Under the pieces are notes generated by a model that saw only the letters and a program-made list of their open reading frames with translations, searched no databases and was not told the origin of the DNA. DNA of 11,523 nt from a virus, in UHGV virus genome UHGV-0861165; one strand, 5' to 3'. Position 1 is the stretch's first letter. Each line of letters opens with the position of its first letter. The position numbers and the translations under genes are program-made. Positions 1-11,523 of this stretch are shown piece by piece.

Positions 1-2748
1 ATTGAGCATGGACCAGATGCTGTCCTGACTTTACCCGAGGGTAATGCCAGCGCAGGACTCCCGTCTTCCGTTCGCTACAATGCCGACTCCGACGAATTTG
101 AGGGCTTCTATGAAAATGGTGGATGGTTGCCGCTGGGTGGCGGTGGTATCCGCTGGGAAGTCCTTCCGCATGCCTCTACGGCAACGCTCACTGAAGGGCG
201 AGGCTATCTCATTAATAATACCACAGGGGCATCTACAGTGGTTCTCCCTTCCCCTACGCGTATTGGGGATTCTGTTACTATTTGTGATGCTTATGGGAAA
301 TTTGCCACTTACCCATTGACTGTGTCTCCTTCTGGAAATAATTTGTATGGCTCCACTGAAGACATGGCTATAACAACTGATAACGTATCAGCAACGTTCA
401 CTTGGTCTGGACCTGAACAAGGTTGGGTTATCACATCCGGTGTCGGTCTTGGCCAAGGTCGTGTCTACAGTCGTGAAATCTTTACAAAAATTTTGGCGTC
501 TGAAACAAGTGCTGTCGCTCTCAATACTCCACCAACAATCGTGGACGTGTATGCTGACGGAAAACGTCTTGCGGAATCCAAATATTCACTAGATGGGAAT
601 GTAATCACTTTCAGTCCTTCTTTGCCAGCCAACACAGAACTTCAGGTGATTGAATATACTCCTATTCAATTGGGTAATAGCGGTGGTTCTGGTTCTTCTA
701 CGATTACCTGGGTCTATAATGGGGGTTCAGCGATTGGCGGTGAAACCGAAATCACTTTGGACGTCGTTGTTGATGATGTTCCGGCCATTGATATAAACGG
801 AAGTCGCCAGTATAAAAATCTGGGATTCACATTCGATCCATTAACCAGTAAAATCTATCTTGCACAAGAACTGGAACCAGAGGATGAAGTTGTTGTAATT
901 ATCAATGGAACACCAAACATCTATAATCAAATTGATCATACTTTGCGGGAAGTTGCTCGTGCTACTAACGTTAAAGACAGTGAAGTAATTCTTAGTTCTG
1001 ACACTACTCAGTCCCTTAATGGTAAGAAGATTATTTACTCTGTTAGTGAGCAGAAGGCATATAGTTTACCTACTCTACCGTCCAATGTATTTATTGAATC
1101 TGTTGAAAGTGGGAAATTAACATATAGTCCTGGCTCAATTAAGGTAGATCTACTCCCATTACCTAATGACTCTGCTGTAACTGAGCAAGCAATTCTCAAC
1201 CAGTTGTCTGCAATTGAAGGTGAATCCCTTATTGGAACAGTTACCTATGTAACCCTGCGAGAGTACACAGGCTCAGCTACACGTGTTAAGTGTATCGGTA
1301 GAAGTGTAGAGGGGGATGGTGGTGAGGGGGACTTCTATTTAGTACCTGGTGATTCTACTTCAGTAGATGATGATGGGGTAATTATTGTTGATGGTTCCGG
1401 CCGTCGTTGGAAACGTTCCTATTCTGGCCCAATTTCTGCCTCTTGGTTCGGTGTAAGAGATGGTACTGACGTCACCACTACACTACAAAATGCAGTTAGT
1501 CGGGGTGGTGGACAAATCTTTGTACAGGACGGTCAGTACACACTTACTGCTCCCATCGTTGCAAATTTTACTGGTGCATCTTTCCCAATTATGGGAAGAA
1601 AAAGTAAGCGTTTTGATTTCATTGGTTCATCCATGGCGAACACCACTTTTAATACTAATGGTAATGAAGCGTTTAGTTTTACCGGTACTGATGGTTCTGT
1701 AGCTGGTCAGGGTGTACATAGTGGTGCACGTATTAGTGACTTCAGCGTCTATGGCACAAATAATACAGGCATTGGTGTACGTTTGGTTGGTGCTGCATAC
1801 CTCAAAGTACATGACCTCCAAATTAAACGTACTAATATCGCTATGCGTATTTCTGGTGTACTCTCAAGTGATATAAAACGAATCAATGCTCAATATAACA
1901 ACCATGGTATGTACATCACCAGTGCTTCTAACAGTACAGTCAATGCTATGCGTATTAGTGGGATGTTTGGTGCTAATAGTAAATGGGGAATTGAAGGTGA
2001 AGTAGGTACTAACGTATACATTGAAGATTCTAATTTTGAGGGTAATGGTACAGATGGGGATGAACTGTCTGGTGCTATTTACTTACGAGTTGTAGAACCT
2101 TTGAGCACCATTAACATTAGTGGGTACTTTGAGGCTAACGTTGGGCGAGCAGATATACTGATAGATAACCGAACCAGCTCTCCTTTGGTTGTAAACCTCC
2201 GTGGTTGCGTATTTAATCGTGGTGGTATGCGTGGTGGGTCTAATCTTGGTATTGGTGCAAAGTATAATGTTGAGACACGCTCTACTGGCGGTGGTCCAAT
2301 CATCCTTAATCTTAATGGTTGTGTATTCTTTACACAGACGGGTTTTGGATATGTACCTAGTGCAGATTCTCCATATATACAACCAGCACCATACTTAACT
2401 GTTAATGGGGAAGATACTTGTTACTTTAGTGAATCTACTAGTCGTGGTGAGACTGGGAACCGTGGTATGACATTAGGTATTTCTATGAAAGCTGATGGAA
2501 CCATGGCCAATAAACCACCTTTCTTAACCTCAACTCGTGTTTCTGCTGGTGTATACACCATCACACACAATACTAGATTCGGGACGGATATTGATCATTT
2601 CCAGGCAGTGGCTACGTCTAAGGCCAGTGGTTTTACTGTATCTTATGTGCAGAAGGTTAACTTACAGGCATTACGCATCGTTACATTAAATGCAGCAGGT
2701 TCGCCTGCTGATACTGATTTTGATGTTATAGTCACTTCTCGTCGTTAA
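1..2748 (+). CDS. Tail spike protein, long form, 5'-partial: N-terminal tandem small beta-domains (gp10-like by recollection), internal docking motif, then right-handed parallel beta-helix depolymerase-type domain
   Basis: Frame 1 has no stop from position 1 to TAA at 2746-2748. The ORF-track start at 127 is a TTG inside this open frame, so the gene begins upstream of the window. The translation shows periodic beta-helix-like repeats rich in G/N/S/T (e.g. GIGVRLVGAAYLKVHDLQIKRTNIAMRISG, NVYIEDSNFEGNG). It is paralogous to ORF3 in the docking motif (REVARATNVKDSEVIL...QKAYSLPTLP) and the pre-helix neck motif. Confidence 0.85.
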   Translation: MEHGPDAVLTLPEGNASAGLPSSVRYNADSDEFEGFYENGGWLPLGGGGIRWEVLPHASTATLTEGRGYLINNTTGASTVVLPSPTRIGDSVTICDAYGKFATYPLTVSPSGNNLYGSTEDMAITTDNVSATFTWSGPEQGWVITSGVGLGQGRVYSREIFTKILASETSAVALNTPPTIVDVYADGKRLAESKYSLDGNVITFSPSLPANTELQVIEYTPIQLGNSGGSGSSTITWVYNGGSAIGGETEITLDVVVDDVPAIDINGSRQYKNLGFTFDPLTSKIYLAQELEPEDEVVVIINGTPNIYNQIDHTLREVARATNVKDSEVILSSDTTQSLNGKKIIYSVSEQKAYSLPTLPSNVFIESVESGKLTYSPGSIKVDLLPLPNDSAVTEQAILNQLSAIEGESLIGTVTYVTLREYTGSATRVKCIGRSVEGDGGEGDFYLVPGDSTSVDDDGVIIVDGSGRRWKRSYSGPISASWFGVRDGTDVTTTLQNAVSRGGGQIFVQDGQYTLTAPIVANFTGASFPIMGRKSKRFDFIGSSMANTTFNTNGNEAFSFTGTDGSVAGQGVHSGARISDFSVYGTNNTGIGVRLVGAAYLKVHDLQIKRTNIAMRISGVLSSDIKRINAQYNNHGMYITSASNSTVNAMRISGMFGANSKWGIEGEVGTNVYIEDSNFEGNGTDGDELSGAIYLRVVEPLSTINISGYFEANVGRADILIDNRTSSPLVVNLRGCVFNRGGMRGGSNLGIGAKYNVETRSTGGGPIILNLNGCVFFTQTGFGYVPSADSPYIQPAPYLTVNGEDTCYFSESTSRGETGNRGMTLGISMKADGTMANKPPFLTSTRVSAGVYTITHNTRFGTDIDHFQAVATSKASGFTVSYVQKVNLQALRIVTLNAAGSPADTDFDVIVTSRR

Positions 2749-2754
2749 CTGATA

Positions 2755-2775
2755 CCCCTCCTCGGAGGGGGTTTC
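2755..2775 (+). terminator. Terminator-like GC hairpin (CCCCTC / GAGGGG stem, short loop) followed by TTTCT
   Basis: Perfect inverted repeat CCCCTC(2755-2760)...GAGGGG(2765-2770) with a T-rich 3' flank, 7 nt after the ORF1 stop. The T-tract is short, so it may be a partial terminator or an RNA-stability element. Confidence 0.55.
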
Positions 2776-2880
2776 TAGAAAAACAATGAGGTACATATGA
2801 ACGGATTATTCTTACAAGGTGGTAAAGGTTCAACCGGGATCTTAACCAATAAACAAGCAATAGCTCGGCATTTCGGTGTC
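2776..2880 (+). repeat. Junction cassette copy A: CTAGAAAAACAA-GAGGT-ATATGAACG plus conserved 5' coding segment of the short tail spike
   Basis: By eye, near-identical at nucleotide level to 8103-8209 (TAGAAAAACAAtGAGGTacATATGAACGgatTaTTCTtACAAGGTGGTAAAGG... versus TAGAAAAACAAaGAGGTttATATGAACGaaaTgTTCTcACAAGGTGGTAAAGG...). Includes the RBS (GAGG) and the ATG at 2797. Confidence 0.7.
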
Positions 2881-5301
2881 AAAGAAGACGAAGTCGTTTA
2901 TTTCACTGTCGGTATTGATCTCAGTGGATTTAAAGTAATTTATGATGAGTCTACCCAACGGGCTTATTCTCTTCCTTCAGGTATTGTTTCAGGAACGACT
3001 GCGATAAGCCTTAATTCTGCTGGGGTATTAGTCCATTCTGCTGGTAATGTGGATTTAGGTGCACTAGCTGTTACCCGGGAAGAGTATGTAACTTTACCTG
3101 GTTCATTCGAGACGGGTGTAACCGTTAATGCCAAGAATGAGTTAGTTGTCTTTGCGAATGGCAAGTATCGTTGGGATGGGGCATTGCCTAAAGTGGTTGA
3201 TGCAGCCTCATCCCCCGAAACCAGTGGTGGTATTGCTTCAGGTGCTTGGGTAGGTGTGGTTTCTGCTCTCCTAACAACAGCCAGCGGTACTGGGCTTGTA
3301 GGTCACAAAGGTGCTAACTTTAGTGACACCACTGCCTACCTTTACCTATCCTGGCGTAATGGTGATATTACTGCATTCGGGGGTGTGTACGATGACGCCT
3401 CAGCTGGTGATCTAAATAAAGCAGCCTTTGCTACTATGCAGGATACTTTTGGGGGTGTACGTATAAACCTCATGGGTAAAGCAGTTTACCTACCAAACTC
3501 TATGGAGTTAGAGGTAGGGAGTCTGGAAATCTGGGGTGGTGGTAATATTTTCGGTGGTTCTGGATACATGTTCCGTGCTGGTGACAACGGATTCGTTAAC
3601 ATTAAGGAATTTACCCTACAAAGTATTGATGCAAGTGGTAACGACTTCACTCGCCTTGTTGGTGCACCCTCTAATCGTGTTAACCTCATCCAGTATGTTG
3701 AAGCAGCATATTTCAAAACGATTGGAAGAGTCATCGTATTCGCTGGCAATGGTCGCGCCGGTGGAGACTTTAATCCAGTAGAGACAAGTTACGGCTGTAA
3801 GCAGATTAACTTCCATCACTTTTCATGCGAAGAGCCAGGAGACTATCTCGTTTCTGCCCAGAACTATCCGTTTGATACCTTCAGTGTCACTAAGTTTTAT
3901 GTACATAATATGAAGGGTACGCTCATCAATGCTGGAATTGATAACGATCATGTCTATGAGCGTCAGCTAAACCACGCAATGAAAACCCTCATCGTTTCCG
4001 ACTACACCGTCATGAACGAAGATGATTTCTGGGCTGATGGCGTCTTTACCTATACTACGGTAGCTATCGCTGAAGTTGAGCACCTAGTTCACACCAACGG
4101 TCGCCAACATGGTGTTAAAGTCAAAGAGGCTGGTAATGTAGTCTACGACATCTACAATAATGCATTTAGCGTCCAAGAAGAAAATATCTTTATCAGTGAC
4201 TGTTTCAACTGGAACGACGGGATGCTCATGCCTCACAAGATTAAAGGGGCGTGGAGCTATTCGAGTAAGAATAAGCACTGGGTGTACCGTAAGAGTTATG
4301 TGGTGGCAATGAAAGCTATTCACAGTGGTATTTCAGAAGGAAACGCCAAAGGTTCTTTCTTCTATCCCGAAACGGATGACCTGCACACTAGTGCTGCTTC
4401 TTCTGTCACTGATTGGACGCAACGACAAATCACGATCACTGACTGTTTCATTGAACTGATTAAAGTTAATCAGGCTAACCTTTCACGTCCATTGTTCAAT
4501 GTGCGTTTGGATGGCAACACCTTTGTTACACACGATTCTGGTACTACCCATTTGGTTCAGTTCTCTGCCTATCCCCATAACCTCTATCAGCAGATGACGG
4601 TAACAAATAACCGTATCATAGCTCCGGCTCTTACGTTATCTGCATTGGTAGGCTTCTCCGCAGGTTCTCAGGCTGGTGGAGGAGTATTCCAGGGGGTTGT
4701 CGATATTTCGAACAATACCGTTCGGGCAGCAGCGGCGAATTTGCTGGCAGATTGGTCTGGTGGTCAGAATATCGGAACTGGGTCAGTCATCCGTATCGAC
4801 AATAACGATATGGTTACCACAGGCAACTGCCAGATCTGTAACTCTAATCCGTCCTATGTTGACTCTGTATTTGCTAGAAACAACTATTTGCAGGGCACTG
4901 CGACTGTAGGGATGGGTAAGCTGAACGCATCTGCCTACGCATATGAGACTGTGAATGGGTTTAAGGGGAACAGTCCGATTGTTCTGTTCCAGCAGGGAAT
5001 CCCAACAGCGCAGCAGATTAATAGTCGCTCGTATCGCCTGGAGATTTCTGGAACTAATGGTGAGAAAGTAACCCAAGGTTTCACTATCACTGCTGGCGTC
5101 AGCACGACTTCAATACGCTTCGTGAGTTCCGATGGGAACACGTACACGAAGGTAACTGGAACCGATAATGGCACCTTCGAAATGCAATCCACTTCATCGG
5201 ATGGGTTAAATTTAGAGGTCGTGGTTGCATCTGATGGTGTAACAGTCAGAACAGCGTCGTCTGTGATGCAAAGGTTTGAAGCTCGACTGTATGCTCTGTA
5301 A
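2797..5301 (+). CDS. Tail spike protein, short form (834 aa): N-terminal anchor module shared with ORF4, divergent central and C-terminal receptor-binding/enzymatic region
   Basis: ATG at 2797 preceded by GAGG with a 5-nt spacer; uninterrupted 2505-nt ORF. The first ~155 aa (MNGLFLQGGKGSTGILTNKQAIARHFGVKEDEVVYF...KVIYDESTQRAYSLP...) are clearly homologous to the ORF4 N-terminus. The C-terminus is rich in G/T/S/V beta-strand-like sequence typical of tail spike C-terminal domains. Enzymatic fold not assignable by eye. Confidence 0.85.
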   Translation: MNGLFLQGGKGSTGILTNKQAIARHFGVKEDEVVYFTVGIDLSGFKVIYDESTQRAYSLPSGIVSGTTAISLNSAGVLVHSAGNVDLGALAVTREEYVTLPGSFETGVTVNAKNELVVFANGKYRWDGALPKVVDAASSPETSGGIASGAWVGVVSALLTTASGTGLVGHKGANFSDTTAYLYLSWRNGDITAFGGVYDDASAGDLNKAAFATMQDTFGGVRINLMGKAVYLPNSMELEVGSLEIWGGGNIFGGSGYMFRAGDNGFVNIKEFTLQSIDASGNDFTRLVGAPSNRVNLIQYVEAAYFKTIGRVIVFAGNGRAGGDFNPVETSYGCKQINFHHFSCEEPGDYLVSAQNYPFDTFSVTKFYVHNMKGTLINAGIDNDHVYERQLNHAMKTLIVSDYTVMNEDDFWADGVFTYTTVAIAEVEHLVHTNGRQHGVKVKEAGNVVYDIYNNAFSVQEENIFISDCFNWNDGMLMPHKIKGAWSYSSKNKHWVYRKSYVVAMKAIHSGISEGNAKGSFFYPETDDLHTSAASSVTDWTQRQITITDCFIELIKVNQANLSRPLFNVRLDGNTFVTHDSGTTHLVQFSAYPHNLYQQMTVTNNRIIAPALTLSALVGFSAGSQAGGGVFQGVVDISNNTVRAAAANLLADWSGGQNIGTGSVIRIDNNDMVTTGNCQICNSNPSYVDSVFARNNYLQGTATVGMGKLNASAYAYETVNGFKGNSPIVLFQQGIPTAQQINSRSYRLEISGTNGEKVTQGFTITAGVSTTSIRFVSSDGNTYTKVTGTDNGTFEMQSTSSDGLNLEVVVASDGVTVRTASSVMQRFEARLYAL

Positions 5302-5302
5302 G

Positions 5303-5330
5303 AACAACCCCGCTTCGGCGGGTTCTTGTT
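5303..5330 (+). terminator. Terminator-like hairpin with CCCGC-TTCG-GCGGG core (UUCG-type tetraloop) and T-rich 3' flank
   Basis: CCCGC(5309-5313) TTCG GCGGG(5318-5322), flanked by partially complementary AACAA/TTGTT arms, followed by TTCTTGTT. Lies immediately after the ORF2 stop (5299-5301). Confidence 0.45.
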
Positions 5331-5360
5331 ATACCTTTGTTCATAAATTTATTAGTTCAG

Positions 5361-5368
5361 ACTAAATA
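5361..5368 (+). promoter_or_regulatory. ACTAAATA motif, candidate phage late-promoter-like element (T4 late consensus TATAAATA, 6/8 match)
   Basis: The same octamer recurs at 10350-10357 upstream of ORF5, followed in both cases by a similar leader (ATGGRG-ATC-(2-3 nt)-AAATG). The spacing to the downstream start is 34-36 nt if ORF3 starts at 5405. Confidence 0.3.
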
Positions 5369-5404
5369 CCCCATATTGGCAAATCCTCTATGGGGTATCT
5401 TCAA

Positions 5405-8068
5405 ATGACCAGAAACGTCGAGAGCATCTTTGGAGCGGTCGTAACAGCTCCGCACCAGATTCCATACACTTACACAGCAACGGGCGGAGAGAAGTTTATC
5501 TCCCTCCCTTTCTACCCTGTCACTGGTATAGTCACAATCAACGGTGGTATGCAAGTTCCGTTAGACAACTTTGAAATCGATGGAAATACGTTGAATCTCG
5601 GGTGTGCATTATCCAAAGGTGACGTTGTGTTCTGTCTGTTTGATAAGATTCTGTCTCCAGAAGATTATAAAACTGGGATTCGAATCTATAAGTTTCAGGC
5701 TATAGGAGGTGAAACCGAGTTCACTCCTGATTACACATCCTATGGAGTCCAATCTCTTTATATCGGTGGTGAGTACAAAACACCCGAAATTGAATATTCC
5801 TATGACAGCACGACAGGGAAAGTGACTTTACAAACTGCGCTGACTGCAGGCGTTTGGGTAGTCGCTGAAATGTCTGTTAAACAACCGAATATCAGTCCGT
5901 TGTTTGACCGAAGTATTCAAGAAATCGCCCGTTCAGCTAATGTAAAAGATTCTGAGGTAATTCTTAATACGGATACATCTCAAGTACTCAATAACAAGAA
6001 AGTTATCTTCGATGCAGCTGCTCAGAAAATTTATGGCCTGCCTTCATTACCGACCAATGTCTATATTAGTTCTGTGTCTAATGGTCAGTTAACCTACAGT
6101 CCAGGTAACATTACCGTAGATTTGATGGAAGTTCCTAATTCTGGTGCTAGTCTCAGAGAAGACCTGAGTAAGCCTGATGGTAGCAAGCTCATTGGTTCAT
6201 GCCCCAATATTGCAGTACTGCGAACAATTGAGCCTACCTATGCTGAACAACGCATTTACGTAGAAGCACATACTGAAGGTATGATTGCAACCAATGCAGG
6301 TGATTTAGGTGGCGGGTATTTTGTATATAAACCATCTGTTACATCAGCAGATGACAATGGTATGACTATTGTTACTGCATCCGGCAAGCGTTGGGTACGT
6401 GATTTACGTGGTAGCACCGAAGTTACCCCATCTATGTTTGGTGCGTGGATGGATGCTCCTTATATTGATGGGAGCACTATTCAGGGTACACCTTATCCTA
6501 AAGCACCAAGTATGGGGGCTGCTGACCTGTCTGGTGTGCACAATGATGGGGATGCTTTGCTGGCAACCTACACATATGCTGTAGCTAATGGGTTGAATAT
6601 CAAAATTACTCAACCGATGTACATTGGTGATACACAGATTGATATTAGCAATCAGCGTTGGACTGGTAGATCTCTATCCATTACGGGTCTTGGTCAGAGA
6701 CAAAGTATTATTTATACATCAGGTAAGGGTGGATTCATCTCTACCAGATGGGGACACAATATTACCGTTGGTCGCCTCTCTTTCCGTAATGCTGATTCTG
6801 ATTACGTAGGTAGTCCTCTTGTTATCAGTTCATTCGACTTAAGTAATGGCATCGGTGGTGGTGGTAAAACATTCAATATTCACGATGTGGACTTTTACCA
6901 CTATAAGTTCGCTTTGCCTATGGCTTGCTTTGTCAGTGTTATGACCAATTTGTATGCATATGACTGTACCTATGGTTTTGGTATCAATGGAAGCACTAGT
7001 ACGGATATGTCATCTATTTGGGCACACCATTGTGACATTGGCTTTTTATGGGGAGCTGCCATTAATCGTACTACATACGAGCCAGCCAATAATGAAACAC
7101 CTGTTATGTATGTTGCTACCAGCAACATTGCAGCAGATGGTTGCATTTTACCTCATAAATTTTATGGAGATATTCGTAGCCTTTCCTTCTCTGGCTTTGG
7201 TATTGAAGGGATAAATGGTCCAGTGGCATTAGACTTCTCACAGTTAGCCTCCCCTGCTGCACAAACAACAATCGTATTCAGAGATGTTTCTTGTTGGATT
7301 CAGTCTAAAATGAATACTGGTGTAACTCATTTTATTGAGTTGCCTGCTAATGAGTACCAGGCTGGTAGGATTATTTTTGACAGTGGTTACGTTAACTCTG
7401 ACTATGCTATCAAATTGATGGAGAATACCACTTCTCCAAGTAACCAGTATATTGGGCGTAGTGTTACATTAAATAGTAATTTTGAATTTTTAAAAGTTAG
7501 CGATGGTTCCTACACAATATCTACATATAACCGTGGTAACCTTTACCGGGGCAGGGTATATGGAGAAGATATTGTACAAGGTCGTAACTCGTACACGGGT
7601 ACTACTTTGTCAGCAATCCATTCTAATAGTAATTCCTTCTTCAGAAGTGTTGACCATAAGGAAGCTACTGTACTGGTTCCATGGAACAGGGCTTTAGATA
7701 TATTCCTTTGTGCTGTAGGGGAAGAGACTAAAATTCCGGATGGTTGCTTCGTTGCTGGGCGTGCAGATATCATTCCAGTTAACAAAAATGGTTTGGCTGG
7801 TACTGAATCAGGGGGCAGTATTCTGTTTGGGCTATCCGGTAGCACACAGGAAAATGTAGCCTCTGGTGCAGTCTGGTCTAATATGATTGCTGGTGATAAA
7901 TCTCTTTCCGGGGTAACAGTAACTAAACTGGTACGTGATGGTAAAACATTTGTTAGAATCGCATTGCCTACGGCAAGCCTAACAAATGCAATCGTTCACC
8001 TTTCTGTAACCTACTGTGGTTTTGCACATTACTACGATAAGCGTTGGGAAATAAAACCCTTAAGCTAA
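5405..8068 (+). CDS. Tail spike protein, long form (887 aa from ATG 5405; 892 aa if the in-frame ATG at 5390 is used): N-terminal tandem small beta-domains, docking motif, neck motif, beta-helix depolymerase-type domain
   Basis: Uninterrupted frame to TAA 8066-8068. Start ambiguity: the ATG at 5390 has no SD and sits in the 3' arm of an inverted repeat, whereas the ATG at 5405 has a leader that parallels the ORF5 leader. The protein is paralogous to ORF1 in the docking motif (QEIARSANVKDSEVIL...QKIYGLPSLP) and the neck motif (GGGYFVYKPSVTSADDNGMTIVTASGKRWVRD). Confidence 0.85.
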   Translation: MTRNVESIFGAVVTAPHQIPYTYTATGGEKFISLPFYPVTGIVTINGGMQVPLDNFEIDGNTLNLGCALSKGDVVFCLFDKILSPEDYKTGIRIYKFQAIGGETEFTPDYTSYGVQSLYIGGEYKTPEIEYSYDSTTGKVTLQTALTAGVWVVAEMSVKQPNISPLFDRSIQEIARSANVKDSEVILNTDTSQVLNNKKVIFDAAAQKIYGLPSLPTNVYISSVSNGQLTYSPGNITVDLMEVPNSGASLREDLSKPDGSKLIGSCPNIAVLRTIEPTYAEQRIYVEAHTEGMIATNAGDLGGGYFVYKPSVTSADDNGMTIVTASGKRWVRDLRGSTEVTPSMFGAWMDAPYIDGSTIQGTPYPKAPSMGAADLSGVHNDGDALLATYTYAVANGLNIKITQPMYIGDTQIDISNQRWTGRSLSITGLGQRQSIIYTSGKGGFISTRWGHNITVGRLSFRNADSDYVGSPLVISSFDLSNGIGGGGKTFNIHDVDFYHYKFALPMACFVSVMTNLYAYDCTYGFGINGSTSTDMSSIWAHHCDIGFLWGAAINRTTYEPANNETPVMYVATSNIAADGCILPHKFYGDIRSLSFSGFGIEGINGPVALDFSQLASPAAQTTIVFRDVSCWIQSKMNTGVTHFIELPANEYQAGRIIFDSGYVNSDYAIKLMENTTSPSNQYIGRSVTLNSNFEFLKVSDGSYTISTYNRGNLYRGRVYGEDIVQGRNSYTGTTLSAIHSNSNSFFRSVDHKEATVLVPWNRALDIFLCAVGEETKIPDGCFVAGRADIIPVNKNGLAGTESGGSILFGLSGSTQENVASGAVWSNMIAGDKSLSGVTVTKLVRDGKTFVRIALPTASLTNAIVHLSVTYCGFAHYYDKRWEIKPLS

Positions 8069-8078
8069 TTAACTACCC

Positions 8079-8102
8079 CCACCCCCTTTATGGGGGTGGT
8101 TT
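8079..8102 (+). terminator. Terminator-like hairpin CCACCCCC-TTTAT-GGGGGTGG followed by TTT
   Basis: Perfect 8-bp inverted repeat (8079-8086 / 8092-8099) with a 5-nt loop and a TTT 3' tail, 10 nt after the ORF3 stop. Confidence 0.6.
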
Positions 8103-8209
8103 ACTAGAAAAACAAAGAGGTTTATATGAACGAAATGTTCTCACAAGGTGGTAAAGGCTCCACTGGTATTCTTACCAATAAGCAAGCCATTGCCCGTAAG
8201 TTTGGTGTT
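8103..8209 (+). repeat. Junction cassette copy B (see 2776-2880)
   Basis: Nucleotide-level similarity to copy A spans the leader, RBS, ATG (8126) and the first ~80 nt of coding sequence. Confidence 0.7.
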
Positions 8210-10297
8210 AAGCAATCTGAGGTTGTTTATGCCAAATCAGGACAGTCCTTGTCTGGTTATAAAGTAATCTACGATAAGGTCACTCAGCGCTCCTATGCAC
8301 TGCCTTCTAACCTGCCTGCTGGCGCTACCATCACCAGCCTGACAGACGGCATTCTCGTACACAATACGGGCACCGTAGACCTGGGTGCTCTGGCTGTACT
8401 GCGCGGGGAGTTCGTTACTCTGGTCGAAAACTTTACGTCTGGATTTACGATTCGTGTCAAAAACGAAGTTGTAAGTGATGGGGTAAATTTGTATCGCTGG
8501 GGTGGTAGTTTACCAAAGACCGTTAATTCTGGTGAAACTTTAGAAAGCACTGGGGGTATGAATACGAATGCGTGGATTGGCGTTGTATCGCTTAATAACT
8601 CATTTTTGAGTGTAAATGCTCTAAGGGCGTCAGAAAACTTAAATAAAAATATACCATTGTTTCTTTCAAGTTATTATGAAGGTATTGATGGCGGCGGCGG
8701 GTCTTTCTACGTAGATACCAACGACACTACGTCATCAGATAACAATGGTACAGTATTTGTTAACGCCTCTGGCCAGCGCATAAAACGTATTTCAGATGGT
8801 GTATGTCGTTGGTCAGACTTCGGAATTCTTCCAGGCATGCCGGTAGCGCCTACAAAATCGCAGTGTGAAGCCGTTTGGTCGTGGGGGTTTGCAAATGGGT
8901 GTACTCGTTATGAAACCTTCCAGAAAGGGGAGATGACGTTCACCTTCCCCCTGTTGTTCCAAGTTCCGGCTAACTGGACAGGTGGTGCTGTTAGCTTCAT
9001 TGCAGAAGGGTTGCATAAATTTGCTTATGATTTCAAAAATGGCGCTACAGATGATGTGATTGAGATCCTCCTTAAACTGGAAGATCTGTCAGGTAATACA
9101 CCCATCCATACTGTTTATAATTTTGATAACGTTGGGATGGGACGGTTCCCCGGGAAAAACATCCGATATACCGCACTGCGACACACGAGCGCAAAAAACT
9201 CAATGATCAAGGTTACTGGGAAGAACAACTACGGATATGCCTTGTTCATAGGCGGTAGTGATAACAGCATCGTGTACAATTCAACGTTTTATAACTGCGA
9301 TGGCCAGTTGCTTGTAAATTCTCCAGCAGGCGGTTACGACAGCTTTGGTGATGCAATTTATGTTGGCGCTAAAAATGTGTCTATCCAGAGTCCTGTAATT
9401 GAAACAACACAGGGTGGTAGAGCCGGTATCGTATTTGAAGGGACATGGGTTGAACGTGTTGGTGGTGAGGTAACAAACTGCTTTATTAAGGGATATGACC
9501 GTGGTATTCACATAGAGACTGTAGGTTTCAGGATGGATGCAATTAATATTACTGGAGGCAGGATACAAGATTGCAATACCAGCGTATTGGCATTCAATGG
9601 TGTAACTGATGATATGGGTAGTGATATGTCTGTTATCATCAAGGGGTTAACGTCAAGGCTTGATAGCACAATTTCAGGCCACGCCAATCCGTCTGGTTTT
9701 AGCCTGGGACACCTTATGGTATCTGGAGTTAACACACAAGTAACAACGGAAGGGTGCTCATGGCAGACTCACCAGAACAACATCACCGTTGTGGGTAATG
9801 GGAAATGGGTGAGCAATGGTGACCGCATGTTTGTTAACTCTGGTGGCATCAACCTGCCGTACACTCGTGGGTGCGAGATAAACAATCTGTACGCACCACA
9901 GAACAGAAACGCGTTAAAATCCGCAGGTAATTTAGTCTTTACAAACTCTTATTGGGGAGGGGACATTAACATAACCGGGGGCAATAAAACAATTATTGAT
10001 AACGTCGAGATGTCAAGACAAGGAGGATATGCAAACTGTGGTCGTATCAGTCTGGTTGGCTCCAATAGTGCGATATTGCGTAATATTATATTCCAGTATC
10101 CAGACTCATGGGCAATAGATAATACTCAAACTTGGCAGGTCCCCGTGTGTCCTATCATAGAAAACATCCACGTAAATAGCGTAGAAACAGGAACTGCAAC
10201 ATTACAAAGAAACGCAGAAAGTGGGGCTAATAATCGGTACAGAAGGTCTATTCCTTCATATATATCAAACGGAAGTACATGGACGATAATTAGTTAA
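8126..10297 (+). CDS. Tail spike protein, short form (723 aa): shared N-terminal anchor module, neck motif, right-handed beta-helix (pectate-lyase-like) depolymerase-type domain
   Basis: ATG at 8126 preceded by GAGG (8117-8120); uninterrupted 2172-nt ORF. The N-terminal ~150 aa are homologous to ORF2. Typical beta-helix repeats are visible (GGSDNSIVYNSTFYNCDGQLLVNS, AIYVGAKNVSIQSPVIETTQGGRAGIVFEG, TNCFIKGYDRGIHIET). Confidence 0.88.
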   Translation: MNEMFSQGGKGSTGILTNKQAIARKFGVKQSEVVYAKSGQSLSGYKVIYDKVTQRSYALPSNLPAGATITSLTDGILVHNTGTVDLGALAVLRGEFVTLVENFTSGFTIRVKNEVVSDGVNLYRWGGSLPKTVNSGETLESTGGMNTNAWIGVVSLNNSFLSVNALRASENLNKNIPLFLSSYYEGIDGGGGSFYVDTNDTTSSDNNGTVFVNASGQRIKRISDGVCRWSDFGILPGMPVAPTKSQCEAVWSWGFANGCTRYETFQKGEMTFTFPLLFQVPANWTGGAVSFIAEGLHKFAYDFKNGATDDVIEILLKLEDLSGNTPIHTVYNFDNVGMGRFPGKNIRYTALRHTSAKNSMIKVTGKNNYGYALFIGGSDNSIVYNSTFYNCDGQLLVNSPAGGYDSFGDAIYVGAKNVSIQSPVIETTQGGRAGIVFEGTWVERVGGEVTNCFIKGYDRGIHIETVGFRMDAINITGGRIQDCNTSVLAFNGVTDDMGSDMSVIIKGLTSRLDSTISGHANPSGFSLGHLMVSGVNTQVTTEGCSWQTHQNNITVVGNGKWVSNGDRMFVNSGGINLPYTRGCEINNLYAPQNRNALKSAGNLVFTNSYWGGDINITGGNKTIIDNVEMSRQGGYANCGRISLVGSNSAILRNIIFQYPDSWAIDNTQTWQVPVCPIIENIHVNSVETGTATLQRNAESGANNRYRRSIPSYISNGSTWTIIS

Positions 10298-10302
10298 CAA
10301 AG

Positions 10303-10330
10303 CCCCTCTTCGGAGGGGTTTCTTCTTTCT
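10303..10330 (+). terminator. Rho-independent-type terminator: CCCCTC-TTCG-GAGGGG hairpin followed by TTTCTTCTTTCT
   Basis: Perfect 6-bp GC stem with a TTCG tetraloop and a pyrimidine/T-rich tail, 5 nt after the ORF4 stop. The stem sequence is nearly the same as the hairpin at 2755-2775. Confidence 0.65.
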
Positions 10331-10339
10331 ATTCCTCGG

Positions 10340-10367
10340 TTGGTTGTATACTAAATATCTCTATAAT
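10340..10367 (+). promoter_or_regulatory. Candidate promoter upstream of ORF5: TTGGTT (weak -35) - 16 nt - TATAAT (consensus -10); overlaps the ACTAAATA motif at 10350-10357
   Basis: A perfect TATAAT hexamer at 10362-10367 lies ~24 nt upstream of ATG 10392, with RBS GGAG at 10381-10384. The -35 is poor (3/6). The alternative reading is a phage late-type promoter centred on ACTAAATA. Confidence 0.3.
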
Positions 10368-10391
10368 GGCACCTATCGATGGAGCATCAAA

Positions 10392-11523
10392 ATGCAAGAA
10401 ATGAACCTCAACCGCCGCCCATATTGGGATGACTGGAATCCAGAGAAGCGTTTTTCGCGCATCCTATTCCGTCCGGCACCTATCAAAGTTCAGACGCGTG
10501 AACTGAACCAGATGCAGACCATCTTCCAGGATCAACTGGAGAAACTTGGCAACCATCTGTTCAAAGACGGTTCAATGGTTATCCCCGGCGGCCTGACGAT
10601 CACCAACACTGCTGTGTCCATGAAGTTCACTCTGGCTGGTGGTAGTGAGTTCACTGATCTGGAAGGTATCTCCGAACTCTATGTTCTGGGCAAGGACAAC
10701 AATGCGAAAGCACGCGTCCTGTCCTTGGAACGTTACCCAGCTGAGCCGGATACAATGTATGCCATCTTAGAGATGACTGAGAGTGGTAGTTCAGACGGTT
10801 TCGAAGCTGGCGACAATCTATACTTCAACACCTATGACGTGAACGATAACTTCATCCGTGTCGGCTATGGCGTGGCCGATACTGTTGGCGGTTCGATTGT
10901 CGCTCGCATGACAAAGGGTGTTTATTTCGTTCGTGGTATGTTCCTGGATGTTGAACCAACCACTTTGATCGTAGACAACGCATCGAACTCTACATCTCAC
11001 CGCATTGGCTTCAAAGTTACAGAAACAATCGTGACCGAAGCAGAAGATGAAAGTCTGTTCTCCAATGCTCAGGGTACTCCGAACTCTAAAGCCCCTGGTG
11101 CGCATCGCCTGCGCGTCGACCTCGTGTTGTCTCGCTACGGTTATGATGAAGAAGTGGCCGACTTCGTTGAACTGGCGAAGGTGAAAGACGGTCGCATTCA
11201 GTCCATGGTCACCCAGTCAACGTACAACATCCTCGAAGACGCCATGGCTCAGCGTACCTATGAGACCAATGGTGACTACAACGTCTCTACTCACCAGATC
11301 GACCTGCGTGAACATCTGAAAGAGAACAACAACGGCGGCGTTTACACTCCGGCTGAAGGTGGTGATGAAAGCAAATTCGTGGCGGTTATGAAGCCAGGCA
11401 TTTCCTACGTTCGTGGTCGTCGTATCGAAAACCTCGGCGAAGAGCTGGTCATAATTGACAAAGCCCGTGACACTGATATCCTGAACAACAACCCTGTGGC
11501 TGTTTCGACTGGCAACTATCTGG
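10392..11523 (+). CDS. Conserved phage structural protein of unknown function (possibly baseplate- or tail-associated), 3'-partial
   Basis: ATG at 10392 with a good RBS (GGAG, 7-nt spacer); the frame is open to the window end, so it is absent from the ORF track. It looks visibly GC-richer, with more host-like codon choice, than the spike genes, and it lacks beta-helix repeats and the spike N-terminal modules. The function is inferred only from its position next to the spike cluster. Confidence 0.75.
   Translation, partial: MQEMNLNRRPYWDDWNPEKRFSRILFRPAPIKVQTRELNQMQTIFQDQLEKLGNHLFKDGSMVIPGGLTITNTAVSMKFTLAGGSEFTDLEGISELYVLGKDNNAKARVLSLERYPAEPDTMYAILEMTESGSSDGFEAGDNLYFNTYDVNDNFIRVGYGVADTVGGSIVARMTKGVYFVRGMFLDVEPTTLIVDNASNSTSHRIGFKVTETIVTEAEDESLFSNAQGTPNSKAPGAHRLRVDLVLSRYGYDEEVADFVELAKVKDGRIQSMVTQSTYNILEDAMAQRTYETNGDYNVSTHQIDLREHLKENNNGGVYTPAEGGDESKFVAVMKPGISYVRGRRIENLGEELVIIDKARDTDILNNNPVAVSTGNYL

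What the first reader, a model, noticed from the sequence alone, without database searches (positions are those of the whole stretch)
10350..10357. Shared ACTAAATA-plus-leader arrangement upstream of ORF3 and ORF5
The same octamer (also at 5361-5368) precedes both genes and is followed by a similar leader. It is a 6/8 match to the T4-type late promoter TATAAATA, so the window may hold at least two late transcription units: ORF3-ORF4 and ORF5 onward. The cassette junctions upstream of ORF2 and ORF4 lack it, consistent with co-transcription of each long/short pair.
Basis: partly seen in the sequence, partly recalled or inferred. Interest (0 to 1): 0.4.

Follow-up and report, generated by a model that had tools for sequence, protein, structure and literature searches.

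The report
Known Ackermannviridae late promoter, hairpin-gated leader
The repeated ACTAAATA is the previously predicted late-gene promoter of ViI/CBA120-like phages (Ackermannviridae), here placed after terminators in front of a tailspike gene and a virion gene; at the tailspike gene it also forms half of a hairpin that would hide the ribosome-binding site on read-through RNA, as in phage T4 lysozyme.

Summary
ACTAAATA lies at 5361-5368 and 10350-10357 (+). Each copy is about 30 nt after an intrinsic terminator and 36 or 34 nt before a start codon (5405, 10392). The window is the tailspike cluster of an Ackermannviridae phage: TSP4-, TSP3-, TSP2- and TSP1-type genes, then VrlC/DUF4815.

The late-promoter reading is well supported but not new. 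In two complete relatives (fGh-Ecl02, CBA120), CTAAATA is the most enriched 7-mer upstream of gene starts (13/17 and 17/25 copies; p=4e-14, 6e-17). It is co-oriented, 23-49 nt from the ATG, biased to virion genes, and has no -35 element. Both genomes encode gp55, gp33 and gp45. The sites are invariant in 19 and 18 related loci. GenBank HE600015 (LIMEstone1) already labels the homologous sites "putative late promoter", and CTAAATAcCcc is a published family motif. No start-site mapping was found.

One addition: at ORF3 the promoter's 3' half plus CCCCATA pairs with TATGGGGTAT, which holds the Shine-Dalgarno. Freeing the ribosome site costs about 16-17 kcal/mol in read-through RNA, against 5-7 in RNA started at the predicted start site. 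About a third of late promoters in the relatives show this, with co-varying arms, as in T4 genes e and 49. The ORF5 leader does not clearly show it.

The parts
1..2748 (+). ORF1, a TSP4-type tailspike. Its 5' end and its own promoter lie off the window.
   Evidence: Open from base 1. The first 200 aa score 949 against CBA120 TSP4. In relatives its start is preceded by aCTAAATAcccctagatg...catttaggggtat.
2755..2770 (+). GC hairpin at the ORF1/ORF2 junction, followed by TTTCT. No late-promoter motif.
   Evidence: It is homologous to the CBA120 TSP2/TSP1 junction.
2797..5301 (+). ORF2, the tailspike at the TSP3 position, with a TSP1-type junction and first ~20 codons.
   Evidence: Pfam Tail_spike_N. 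Direct repeat 2755-2901 / 8084-8230. N-terminal comparison.
5303..5330 (+). Intrinsic terminator after ORF2 (core stem 5309-5322, UUCG loop, T-rich tail).
   Evidence: Fold -12.4 kcal/mol, z -2.65. Hairpins at this place in relatives differ in sequence but keep pairing.
5361..5368 (+). ACTAAATA, the late-promoter core (-10-like box) for ORF3. With the next bases it is a perfect CTAAATACCCC.
   Evidence: Invariant in 18 related loci, and homology starts exactly here. Genome-wide enrichment.
5373..5376 (+). Predicted transcription start (inferred, not mapped).
   Evidence: The T4 late box lies about one helical turn upstream of the start (PMC2988020). There is an A-rich peak 5-7 nt after TAAATA across 58 sites.
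5366..5375 (+). 5' arm ATACCCCATA of the leader hairpin. It overlaps the promoter box and the predicted start.
   Evidence: Fold of 5355-5415: -17.3 kcal/mol, z -3.35.
5389..5398 (+). 3' arm TATGGGGTAT of the leader hairpin. It contains the Shine-Dalgarno GGGGT (5392-5396) and the non-used ATG at 5390.
   Evidence: The stem is invariant and the loop variable in 18 loci.
5405..8068 (+). ORF3, a TSP2-type tailspike. The true start is 5405.
   Evidence: Score 894 against CBA120 TSP2. Relatives annotate this ATG.
8079..8099 (+). GC hairpin at the ORF3/ORF4 junction, followed by TTTACT. No late-promoter motif.
   Evidence: Fold -18.9 kcal/mol, z -1.98.
8126..10297 (+). ORF4, a TSP1-type tailspike.
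   Evidence: Pfam Tail_spike_N. N-terminus MNEMFSQGGKGSTGILTNKQA is identical to CBA120 TSP1.
10300..10321 (+). Intrinsic terminator after ORF4 (9-bp stem, UUCG loop, T-rich tail).
   Evidence: Fold -14.9 kcal/mol, z -3.86, 0 of 200 shuffles as stable. Hairpin present, with varied sequence, in the 18 non-LIMEstone relatives; LIMEstone1 has a different stem with no T-run.
10350..10357 (+). ACTAAATA, the late-promoter core for ORF5 (the site in the finding).
   Evidence: Invariant in 19 Ackermannviridae loci. The homologous TAAATA is annotated 'putative late promoter' in LIMEstone1 HE600015.
10362..10367 (+). Perfect TATAAT inside the ORF5 leader, with TTGGTT 16 nt upstream at 10340-10345. This overlaps the predicted late start region (10362-10365). 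It is a possible secondary sigma-70-type -10 box.
   Evidence: It is TATAAA in Kuttervirus loci and absent in type-B and LIMEstone leaders.
10381..10384 (+). Shine-Dalgarno GGAG of ORF5. It can pair weakly (ATGGAG with CTCTAT at 10359-10364).
   Evidence: The helix is no better than controls.
10392..11523 (+). ORF5, a VrlC-like virion protein (DUF4815) that runs off the window.
   Evidence: Pfam DUF4815, E=3e-35. The LIMEstone1 homolog ORF157 is a mass-spectrometry-confirmed structural protein.

Best explanation
ACTAAATA is the -10-type core of the late promoter class of Ackermannviridae phages. The consensus is roughly a-C-TAAATA-c-C-y-c-a-A-a, with no -35 element. It is presumably read by host RNA polymerase carrying the phage's gp55-like late sigma factor, helped by the gp33 and gp45 homologs. 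In this window, two modules of the form 'terminator - late promoter - 34-36 nt leader - Shine-Dalgarno - ATG' start late transcription units. One runs TSP2-type ORF3 through TSP1-type ORF4. The other starts at the virion gene ORF5. A third unit, ORF1-ORF2, would start at a promoter just off the left edge of the window.

At ORF3 the module has a second layer. Bases 5366-5375 comprise the last three bases of the box plus CCCCATA. They pair perfectly with 5389-5398 (TATGGGGTAT), which carries the Shine-Dalgarno. RNA that reads in from upstream contains both arms, so its ribosome-binding site is locked. RNA started at the promoter itself (predicted at about 5373-5376) lacks the 5' arm and is translatable. 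This is the arrangement known for T4 genes e, 49, soc and I-TevI.

What is shown: the motif, its position, its enrichment and conservation, the hairpin, and the co-variation of hairpin arms among promoters. What is inferred: recognition by gp55, the position of the transcription start, and the translational effect. I put the late-promoter identity at about 0.85, hairpin gating at ORF3 at about 0.5, and hairpin gating at ORF5 at about 0.15 or less.
For: Family identity: the window matches Ackermannviridae tailspike clusters.

Genome-wide test in fGh-Ecl02: 13 of 17 CTAAATA copies lie in -70..-13 of a co-oriented start, against 0.55 expected (p=4e-14). It is the top 7-mer. The genes served include gp6, three tailspikes, VrlC, gp14, sheath, gp22 and gp48.

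Replication in CBA120, from a different subfamily: 17 of 25 copies, p=6e-17, again the top 7-mer.

The TAAATA core lies 23-49 nt (median 32) before 28 and 30 starts. No other position from -45 to -2 carries more than 0.25 bit. Virion genes are enriched (p=5e-5).

Divergent gene pairs gp48/gp4 and gp54/gp2 have one TAAATA per direction in intergenic regions of about 50 nt.

gp55, gp33 and gp45 homologs are annotated in both relatives.

Conservation: ACTAAATA is invariant before VrlC in 19 loci. It is invariant before TSP2-type genes in 18 loci, with homology beginning exactly at the motif.

Prior annotation and literature: LIMEstone1 features and the CTAAATAcCcc motif (PMC7283392).

Hairpin at ORF3: -17.3 kcal/mol, z -3.35, against -3.7 for the form starting at 5374. 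The cost of opening the SD-AUG region is 16-17 against 5-7 kcal/mol.

Hairpins across the relatives: helices with score >=18 occur in 7/28 and 10/30 late promoters, against 1.4% and 1.9% of controls. Permuting 3' arms among promoters gives p=2e-4 and 3e-4. Between the two genomes, the endoVII leader loses or gains a G in one arm and a C in the other together. The endolysin leader changes only in ways that keep pairing.

T4 precedent: PMC3014915 and PMC2988022.
Against: No transcription start site or transcriptome for any Ackermannviridae phage was found in the searched library. Promoter function and start position are therefore predictions.

The window's own genome could not be examined. All genome-wide statistics come from relatives.

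The segment after the box is C-rich, whereas T4 late promoters are A/T-rich there (PMC2988020). Start-site spacing might therefore differ. If RNA started within 1-2 nt of the box, a 7-bp stem would survive, with an opening cost of about 12 kcal/mol.

The ORF3 stem never varies among orthologs, so there is no covariation at this particular locus.

The genes upstream of ORF3 are also late genes, so the biological reason for blocking read-through translation there is unclear.

The ORF5 leader helix (6 bp with a G-U pair; z -0.88) is no better than controls.
Confidence: 0.8

Rival explanations
1. ORF5 is driven, wholly or additionally, by a host sigma-70-type promoter: TTGGTT (10340-10345), a 16-nt spacer, then a perfect TATAAT (10362-10367). 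On this reading ACTAAATA is incidental at this site.
For: A perfect TATAAT lies 4 nt after the motif with an acceptable spacer and a 3/6 -35 hexamer. Kuttervirus loci keep TTGGCT...TATAAA.
Against: TATAAT is lost in type-B leaders and in LIMEstone1, while ACTAAATA is invariant in all 19 loci. The consensus scan did not call it because the -35 is too weak. ORF5 homologs are virion proteins, which are expected to be late. The family's reported sigma-70-like motif TTCAAT-N14-TATAAT is absent from the window.
Confidence: 0.07
2. The motif and inverted repeat act at the RNA or protein-binding level and are not a promoter. Candidates are a processing site, a 5' stabilising stem-loop on RNA started further upstream, or an operator for a translational or transcriptional regulator such as the RegA homolog.
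For: The hairpin is a strong RNA structure. Relatives encode RegA. No start site has been mapped.
Against: The motif occurs in both orientations in ~50-nt divergent intergenic regions, into which no upstream transcript of the right sense can read. Many sites have the motif without any hairpin. Arm sequences and loop lengths vary with compensatory changes, which argues against a fixed protein-binding site. The motif sits at a -10-like distance from an A-rich patch and resembles the T4 late box. It also directly follows terminators.
Confidence: 0.07
3. The two octamers are a chance repeat in A/T-rich intergenic DNA and have no function.
For: The window-level count is only modestly above chance: 6 of 200 shuffles reach 3 copies. 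One-mismatch matches are not enriched: 36 against 41.5 expected.
Against: Enrichment p-values of 4e-14 and 6e-17 in two relatives. Invariance of the motif in 19 and 18 related loci while the flanks diverge.
Confidence: 0.01

Closest known systems
Ackermannviridae ('Viunalikevirus') conserved regulatory motif CTAAATAcCcc, also annotated as 'putative late promoter' features in Dickeya phage LIMEstone1 (GenBank HE600015)
   Same: Same sequence: the 5361 site is a perfect CTAAATACCCC. It sits in the same orthologous positions, upstream of the VrlC homolog ORF157 and of the tailspike genes ORF159 and ORF160. The motif is quoted as a family hallmark in PMC7283392. From my own memory, it originates from the 2012 Arch Virol genus proposal, which I could not open.
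   Different: Nothing essential differs. The ORF5 copy departs from the 'cCcc' tail (TCTC instead). The sources I could read treat the motif as a bare sequence and do not mention that its 3' half pairs with the Shine-Dalgarno.
Bacteriophage T4 late promoters (TATAAATA, gp55/gp33/gp45-dependent)
   Same: An 8-bp A/T box at the -10 position. No -35 element. It lies upstream of virion, lysis and recombination-late genes. The late sigma, co-activator and clamp genes are present in relatives. The TAAATA core is shared.
   Different: The first two bases are usually aC rather than TA. TATAAATA itself occurs only 5 times per genome in the relatives. The downstream segment is C-rich rather than A/T-rich. 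Dependence on gp55 is untested.
T4 genes e, 49, soc, I-TevI and segB, and Aeh1 mobE: a late promoter embedded in the 5' strand of a hairpin that sequesters the ribosome-binding site
   Same: The box and following bases form the 5' arm, and the Shine-Dalgarno lies in the 3' arm. Read-through RNA is predicted to be locked, and promoter-initiated RNA open. In the relatives, the endolysin and endonuclease VII genes, the counterparts of T4 e and 49, have the same arrangement.
   Different: Here it affects about a third of late promoters, including tailspike genes that sit in an all-late cluster rather than in early transcription units. No experimental evidence exists.

Membership tests
Ackermannviridae late-promoter motif (CTAAATAcCcc) | Sequence match to CTAAATA(cCcc) | tested here: met
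   5362-5372 is CTAAATACCCC, a perfect match. 10351-10361 is CTAAATATCTC, with the core perfect and the tail 2/4.
Ackermannviridae late-promoter motif (CTAAATAcCcc) | Host genome belongs to Ackermannviridae | tested here: met
   281 phage records match. The best are Kuttervirus/Agtrevirus-like, and the TSP4-TSP1 plus VrlC synteny is shared with CBA120.
Ackermannviridae late-promoter motif (CTAAATAcCcc) | Orthologous position carries the motif in other family members | tested here: met
   19/19 VrlC loci and 18/18 TSP2-type loci. LIMEstone1 annotates these sites as putative late promoters.
T4-type (gp55-dependent) late promoter | A/T-rich 8-bp box resembling TATAAATA, with no -35 element | tested here: met
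   6/8 match with the TAAATA core identical. No position from -45 to -2 exceeds 0.25 bit across 58 sites in relatives.
T4-type (gp55-dependent) late promoter | Genome encodes gp55 late sigma, gp33 co-activator and gp45 clamp | tested here: met
   All three are annotated in fGh-Ecl02 and CBA120. The window's own genome outside these 11.5 kb could not be inspected.
T4-type (gp55-dependent) late promoter | Preferential location upstream of late (virion, lysis) genes | tested here: met
   13/32 virion genes against 15/160 others, Fisher p=5e-5. Endolysin and endoVII are also served.
T4-type (gp55-dependent) late promoter | Transcription starts about 6-7 nt downstream of the box, late in infection, and depends on gp55 | not testable with these tools
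   No start-site or transcriptome data were found. The only indirect support is an A-rich peak 5-7 nt after the box.
T4-type (gp55-dependent) late promoter | A/T-rich segment immediately downstream of the box | tested here: not met
   Positions +1 to +4 after TAAATA are C/T-rich, with C the commonest base. T4 is A/T-rich there (PMC2988020).
T4 e/49-type RBS-sequestering hairpin with embedded late promoter | Stable helix whose 5' strand overlaps the late box and whose 3' strand holds the Shine-Dalgarno or AUG | tested here: met
   ORF3: a 10-bp perfect helix 5366-5375 / 5389-5398, -17.3 kcal/mol, z -3.35. ORF5: only 6 bp, z -0.88, which is inconclusive or not met.
T4 e/49-type RBS-sequestering hairpin with embedded late promoter | Evidence that the pairing is selected (co-variation) | tested here: met
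   This holds across promoters and between genomes: permutation p=2e-4 and 3e-4, plus a compensatory G/C indel in the endoVII leader. At the ORF3 locus itself the stem is invariant, so there is no covariation there.
T4 e/49-type RBS-sequestering hairpin with embedded late promoter | Read-through transcripts are untranslated and promoter-initiated transcripts are translated | not testable with these tools
   Only predicted opening energies are available: 16-17 against 5-7 kcal/mol.

The most novel reading that the evidence does not exclude
Roughly a third of Ackermannviridae late promoters, including those of the exchangeable tailspike genes, are built into hairpins that occlude the Shine-Dalgarno on any transcript entering from upstream. 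On this reading the 'cCcc' tail of the published motif is not a polymerase contact. It is the complement of a GGGG Shine-Dalgarno. Each tailspike cassette (promoter, insulating hairpin, conserved N-terminal anchor domain) would then be a self-contained expression module, insulated from read-through. That would explain why sequence homology between phages begins exactly at the promoter.
Probability: 0.45. Interest if true: 0.45.

Novelty: new member of a known kind. Interest (0 to 1): 0.3.

Why it matters
As a promoter call, this only confirms existing annotation practice for ViI/CBA120-like phages, which are widely used in biocontrol and as tailspike-engineering chassis. It gives the transcription-unit map of this tailspike cluster.

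The hairpin layer has practical value. Anyone swapping tailspike genes in these phages should keep the promoter, leader and N-terminal block together. An inserted gene that is fed only by read-through would be translationally silent if the hairpin is retained.

It also extends a classic T4 translational-timing device to a second phage family and to receptor-binding genes. It offers a simple explanation for part of a published 'regulatory motif'. None of this is surprising in kind.

Tried and rejected
1. The window-level count alone is weak evidence. One-mismatch variants are not enriched, so near-matches such as CTAATTA at 8065 were not accepted as promoters.

2. The sigma-70 consensus scan found nothing at either site, and fewer hits overall than shuffles give.

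3. The Rfam gathering scan of the window returned no families.

4. I looked for hairpin gating at ORF5. The 6-bp CTCTAT/ATGGAG helix is within the control range, and relatives with other leader types do not keep it. It was rejected as a significant feature.

5. I considered that the inverted repeats are just divergent TAAATA/TATTTA promoter pairs. That is true for gp48/gp4 and gp54/gp2. For most of the tailspike, endolysin and endoVII leaders, however, the reverse strand reads AAAATA rather than TAAATA, and no divergent gene exists there.

6. I tried to open the 2012 Viunalikevirus genus paper and the Vi01 genome paper. Neither is held.

7. Literature searches for Ackermannviridae start-site or transcriptome data returned nothing.

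8. The window's own complete genome is not in the phage collection: no record covers 80% or more of the window. Genome-wide tests therefore had to use relatives.

Full report
**Observation.** ACTAAATA lies on the + strand at 10350-10357 and 5361-5368. A third copy is antisense inside ORF1 (1336-1343). A bare CTAAATA lies inside ORF2 at 3412. The count alone is only mildly unusual: 3 copies against 0.51 expected, and 6 of 200 shuffles reach 3. The two + copies, however, both lie in the ~2.6% of the window that is intergenic. They end 36 and 34 nt before start codons, and each is about 30 nt downstream of a GC hairpin plus T-run (5309-5322 and 10300-10321; fold z -2.65 and -3.86). The true starts are ATG 5405 and ATG 10392. 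Relatives annotate 5405, and the in-frame ATG at 5390 sits inside a hairpin arm. The two leaders are genuinely similar: the alignment score is 6, against -7.3 +/- 3.3 for shuffles, and each is the other's best match among 28 late leaders of a relative. The ORF2 and ORF4 junctions lack the motif.

**Context.** The window is the tailspike cluster of an Ackermannviridae phage. By comparison with CBA120:
- ORF1 is TSP4-type, with its 5' end off the window.
- ORF2 occupies the TSP3 position.
- ORF3 is TSP2-type.
- ORF4 is TSP1-type.
- ORF5 is the VrlC-like DUF4815 virion protein.

- In fGh-Ecl02 (153 kb, 92% coding), CTAAATA occurs 17 times. Thirteen copies lie in -70..-13 of a co-oriented start, against 0.55 expected (p=4e-14). 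It is the top-ranked 7-mer in an unbiased scan.
- In CBA120, from a different subfamily, it is again top-ranked: 17 of 25 copies, p=6e-17.
- The invariant core is TAAATA. It lies 23-49 nt (median 32) before 28 and 30 starts, usually preceded by aC and followed by C/T-rich and then A-rich bases. No position from -45 to -2 carries information, so there is no -35 element.
- Virion genes are over-represented: 13/32 against 15/160, p=5e-5.
- In the ~50-nt divergent regions gp48/gp4 and gp54/gp2, one TAAATA faces each way. This is hard to explain other than as promoters.
- Both relatives encode gp55, gp33 and gp45 homologs.
- ACTAAATA is invariant before VrlC in 19 related loci, including LIMEstone1, while the terminator and the leader vary.
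- It is also invariant before TSP2-type genes in 18 loci. There, homology starts exactly at the motif and the upstream flank is unrelated between phages.

**Already known.** The LIMEstone1 GenBank record marks TAAATA at the orthologous sites (before ORF157/VrlC and before tailspikes ORF159 and ORF160) as 'minus_10_signal, putative late promoter'. Its paper reports 33 predicted late promoters (PMC3296691). PMC7283392 quotes CTAAATAcCcc as one of two 'unique regulatory motifs'. The 2011 CBA120 paper still called the late motif unidentified. I found no experimental start-site mapping for the family.

**Added layer.** At ORF3, bases 5366-5375 (ATACCCCATA) comprise the end of the box plus the next seven bases. 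They pair perfectly with 5389-5398 (TATGGGGTAT), which contains the GGGGT Shine-Dalgarno. This read-through form folds at -17.3 kcal/mol, z -3.35. T4 late boxes lie about one helical turn upstream of the start (PMC2988020). RNA initiated here should therefore begin near 5373-5376 and lack the 5' arm. The predicted cost of opening the SD-AUG region falls from 16-17 to 5-7 kcal/mol.

The same design recurs in the relatives.
- Strong helices between 'box + 10 nt' and 'last 20 nt before ATG' occur in 7/28 and 10/30 late promoters, against 1.4% and 1.9% of controls.
- Permuting 3' arms among promoters destroys the signal (p=2e-4 and 3e-4).
- Between the two genomes, the endoVII leader differs by a G in one arm and a C in the other together. 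The endolysin arms change only in ways that keep pairing.

This is the arrangement documented for T4 e, 49, soc and I-TevI (PMC3014915, PMC2988022). The ORF5 leader has only a 6-bp helix with a G-U pair (z -0.88), which is within the control range. The two sites therefore share the promoter and an apparently homologous leader, but clear gating exists only at ORF3.

**Limits.**
- Everything about function is inferred.
- Start-site spacing could differ from T4, because the post-box segment is C-rich.
- The ORF3 stem shows no variation among orthologs.
- It is unclear why read-through from other late genes should be silenced. Cassette insulation is my speculation.

**Transcription units.** The evidence fits three units: [off-window promoter]-ORF1-ORF2-terminator, promoter-ORF3-ORF4-terminator, and promoter-ORF5 onward. 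GC hairpins with short T-runs lie at 2755-2770 and 8079-8099, so they may attenuate transcription within the pairs. The lack of a promoter before ORF2 is lineage-specific. CBA120, fGh-Ecl02 and LIMEstone1 have CTAAATACCCC before the gene at that position. In this window, ORF2 instead carries a TSP1-type junction and first ~20 codons.

**Verdict.** The motif is already known in the family. The hairpin-gated leader is a new member of a known T4-type mechanism. Interest is low to moderate.

Noticed in passing
window 2749-2901 and 8069-8230: The ORF2 junction and its first ~20 codons are a direct repeat of the ORF4 (TSP1-type) junction: 147 nt at 74% identity. After that, ORF2 resembles CBA120 TSP3. 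This recombinant 5' end replaces the promoter and hairpin leader that the TSP3-position gene has in CBA120, fGh-Ecl02 and LIMEstone1.
   Followed up: partly
window 10340-10367: A perfect TATAAT at 10362-10367 has TTGGTT 16 nt upstream and overlaps the late promoter and leader of ORF5. It could be a secondary host-type promoter. It is TATAAA in Kuttervirus loci and absent in other leader types.
   Followed up: partly
window 2755-2770 and 8079-8099: GC-rich hairpins followed by only TTT(C/A)CT separate the long and short tailspike genes. Their stem sequences differ between the two junctions and from CBA120 but keep pairing. They may be leaky terminators or RNA 3'-end stabilisers.
   Followed up: partly
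window 5390-5392: An in-frame ATG lies 15 nt upstream of the accepted ORF3 start, inside the 3' arm of the leader hairpin. Mechanical ORF calling picks it, but relatives annotate 5405.
   Followed up: yes
L004 (fGh-Ecl02 102040 and 112951); L052/L053 (CBA120 44214 and 55338): The endolysin and endonuclease VII genes of relatives have a late TAAATA box embedded in 13-14-bp hairpins that cover the Shine-Dalgarno. These are the same two gene functions (e and 49) for which this device is known in T4. The endoVII arms differ between the genomes by a paired G/C gain or loss.
   Followed up: partly
L003 (fGh-Ecl02 98850); L053 (CBA120 upstream of 58639): One CTAAATA copy sits in the loop of a terminator-like hairpin, CCCCCTAAATACAGGGGG followed by a T-run, 31-32 nt before a small gene. 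This would be a promoter inside a terminator loop.
   Followed up: no
fGh-Ecl02 and CBA120 whole genomes (L002-L005, L052-L055): The second most distinctive upstream word is TTCAATA / TCAATAA. It matches the family's other reported motif, TTCAAT-N14-TATAAT, presumably early promoters. That full motif is absent from the window.
   Followed up: partly
L030-L047, upstream of the TSP2-type gene: In several relatives (L040, L042-L047), the previous gene ends directly before the promoter with no terminator hairpin. Read-through into the hairpin-gated leader is therefore unavoidable there.
   Followed up: no
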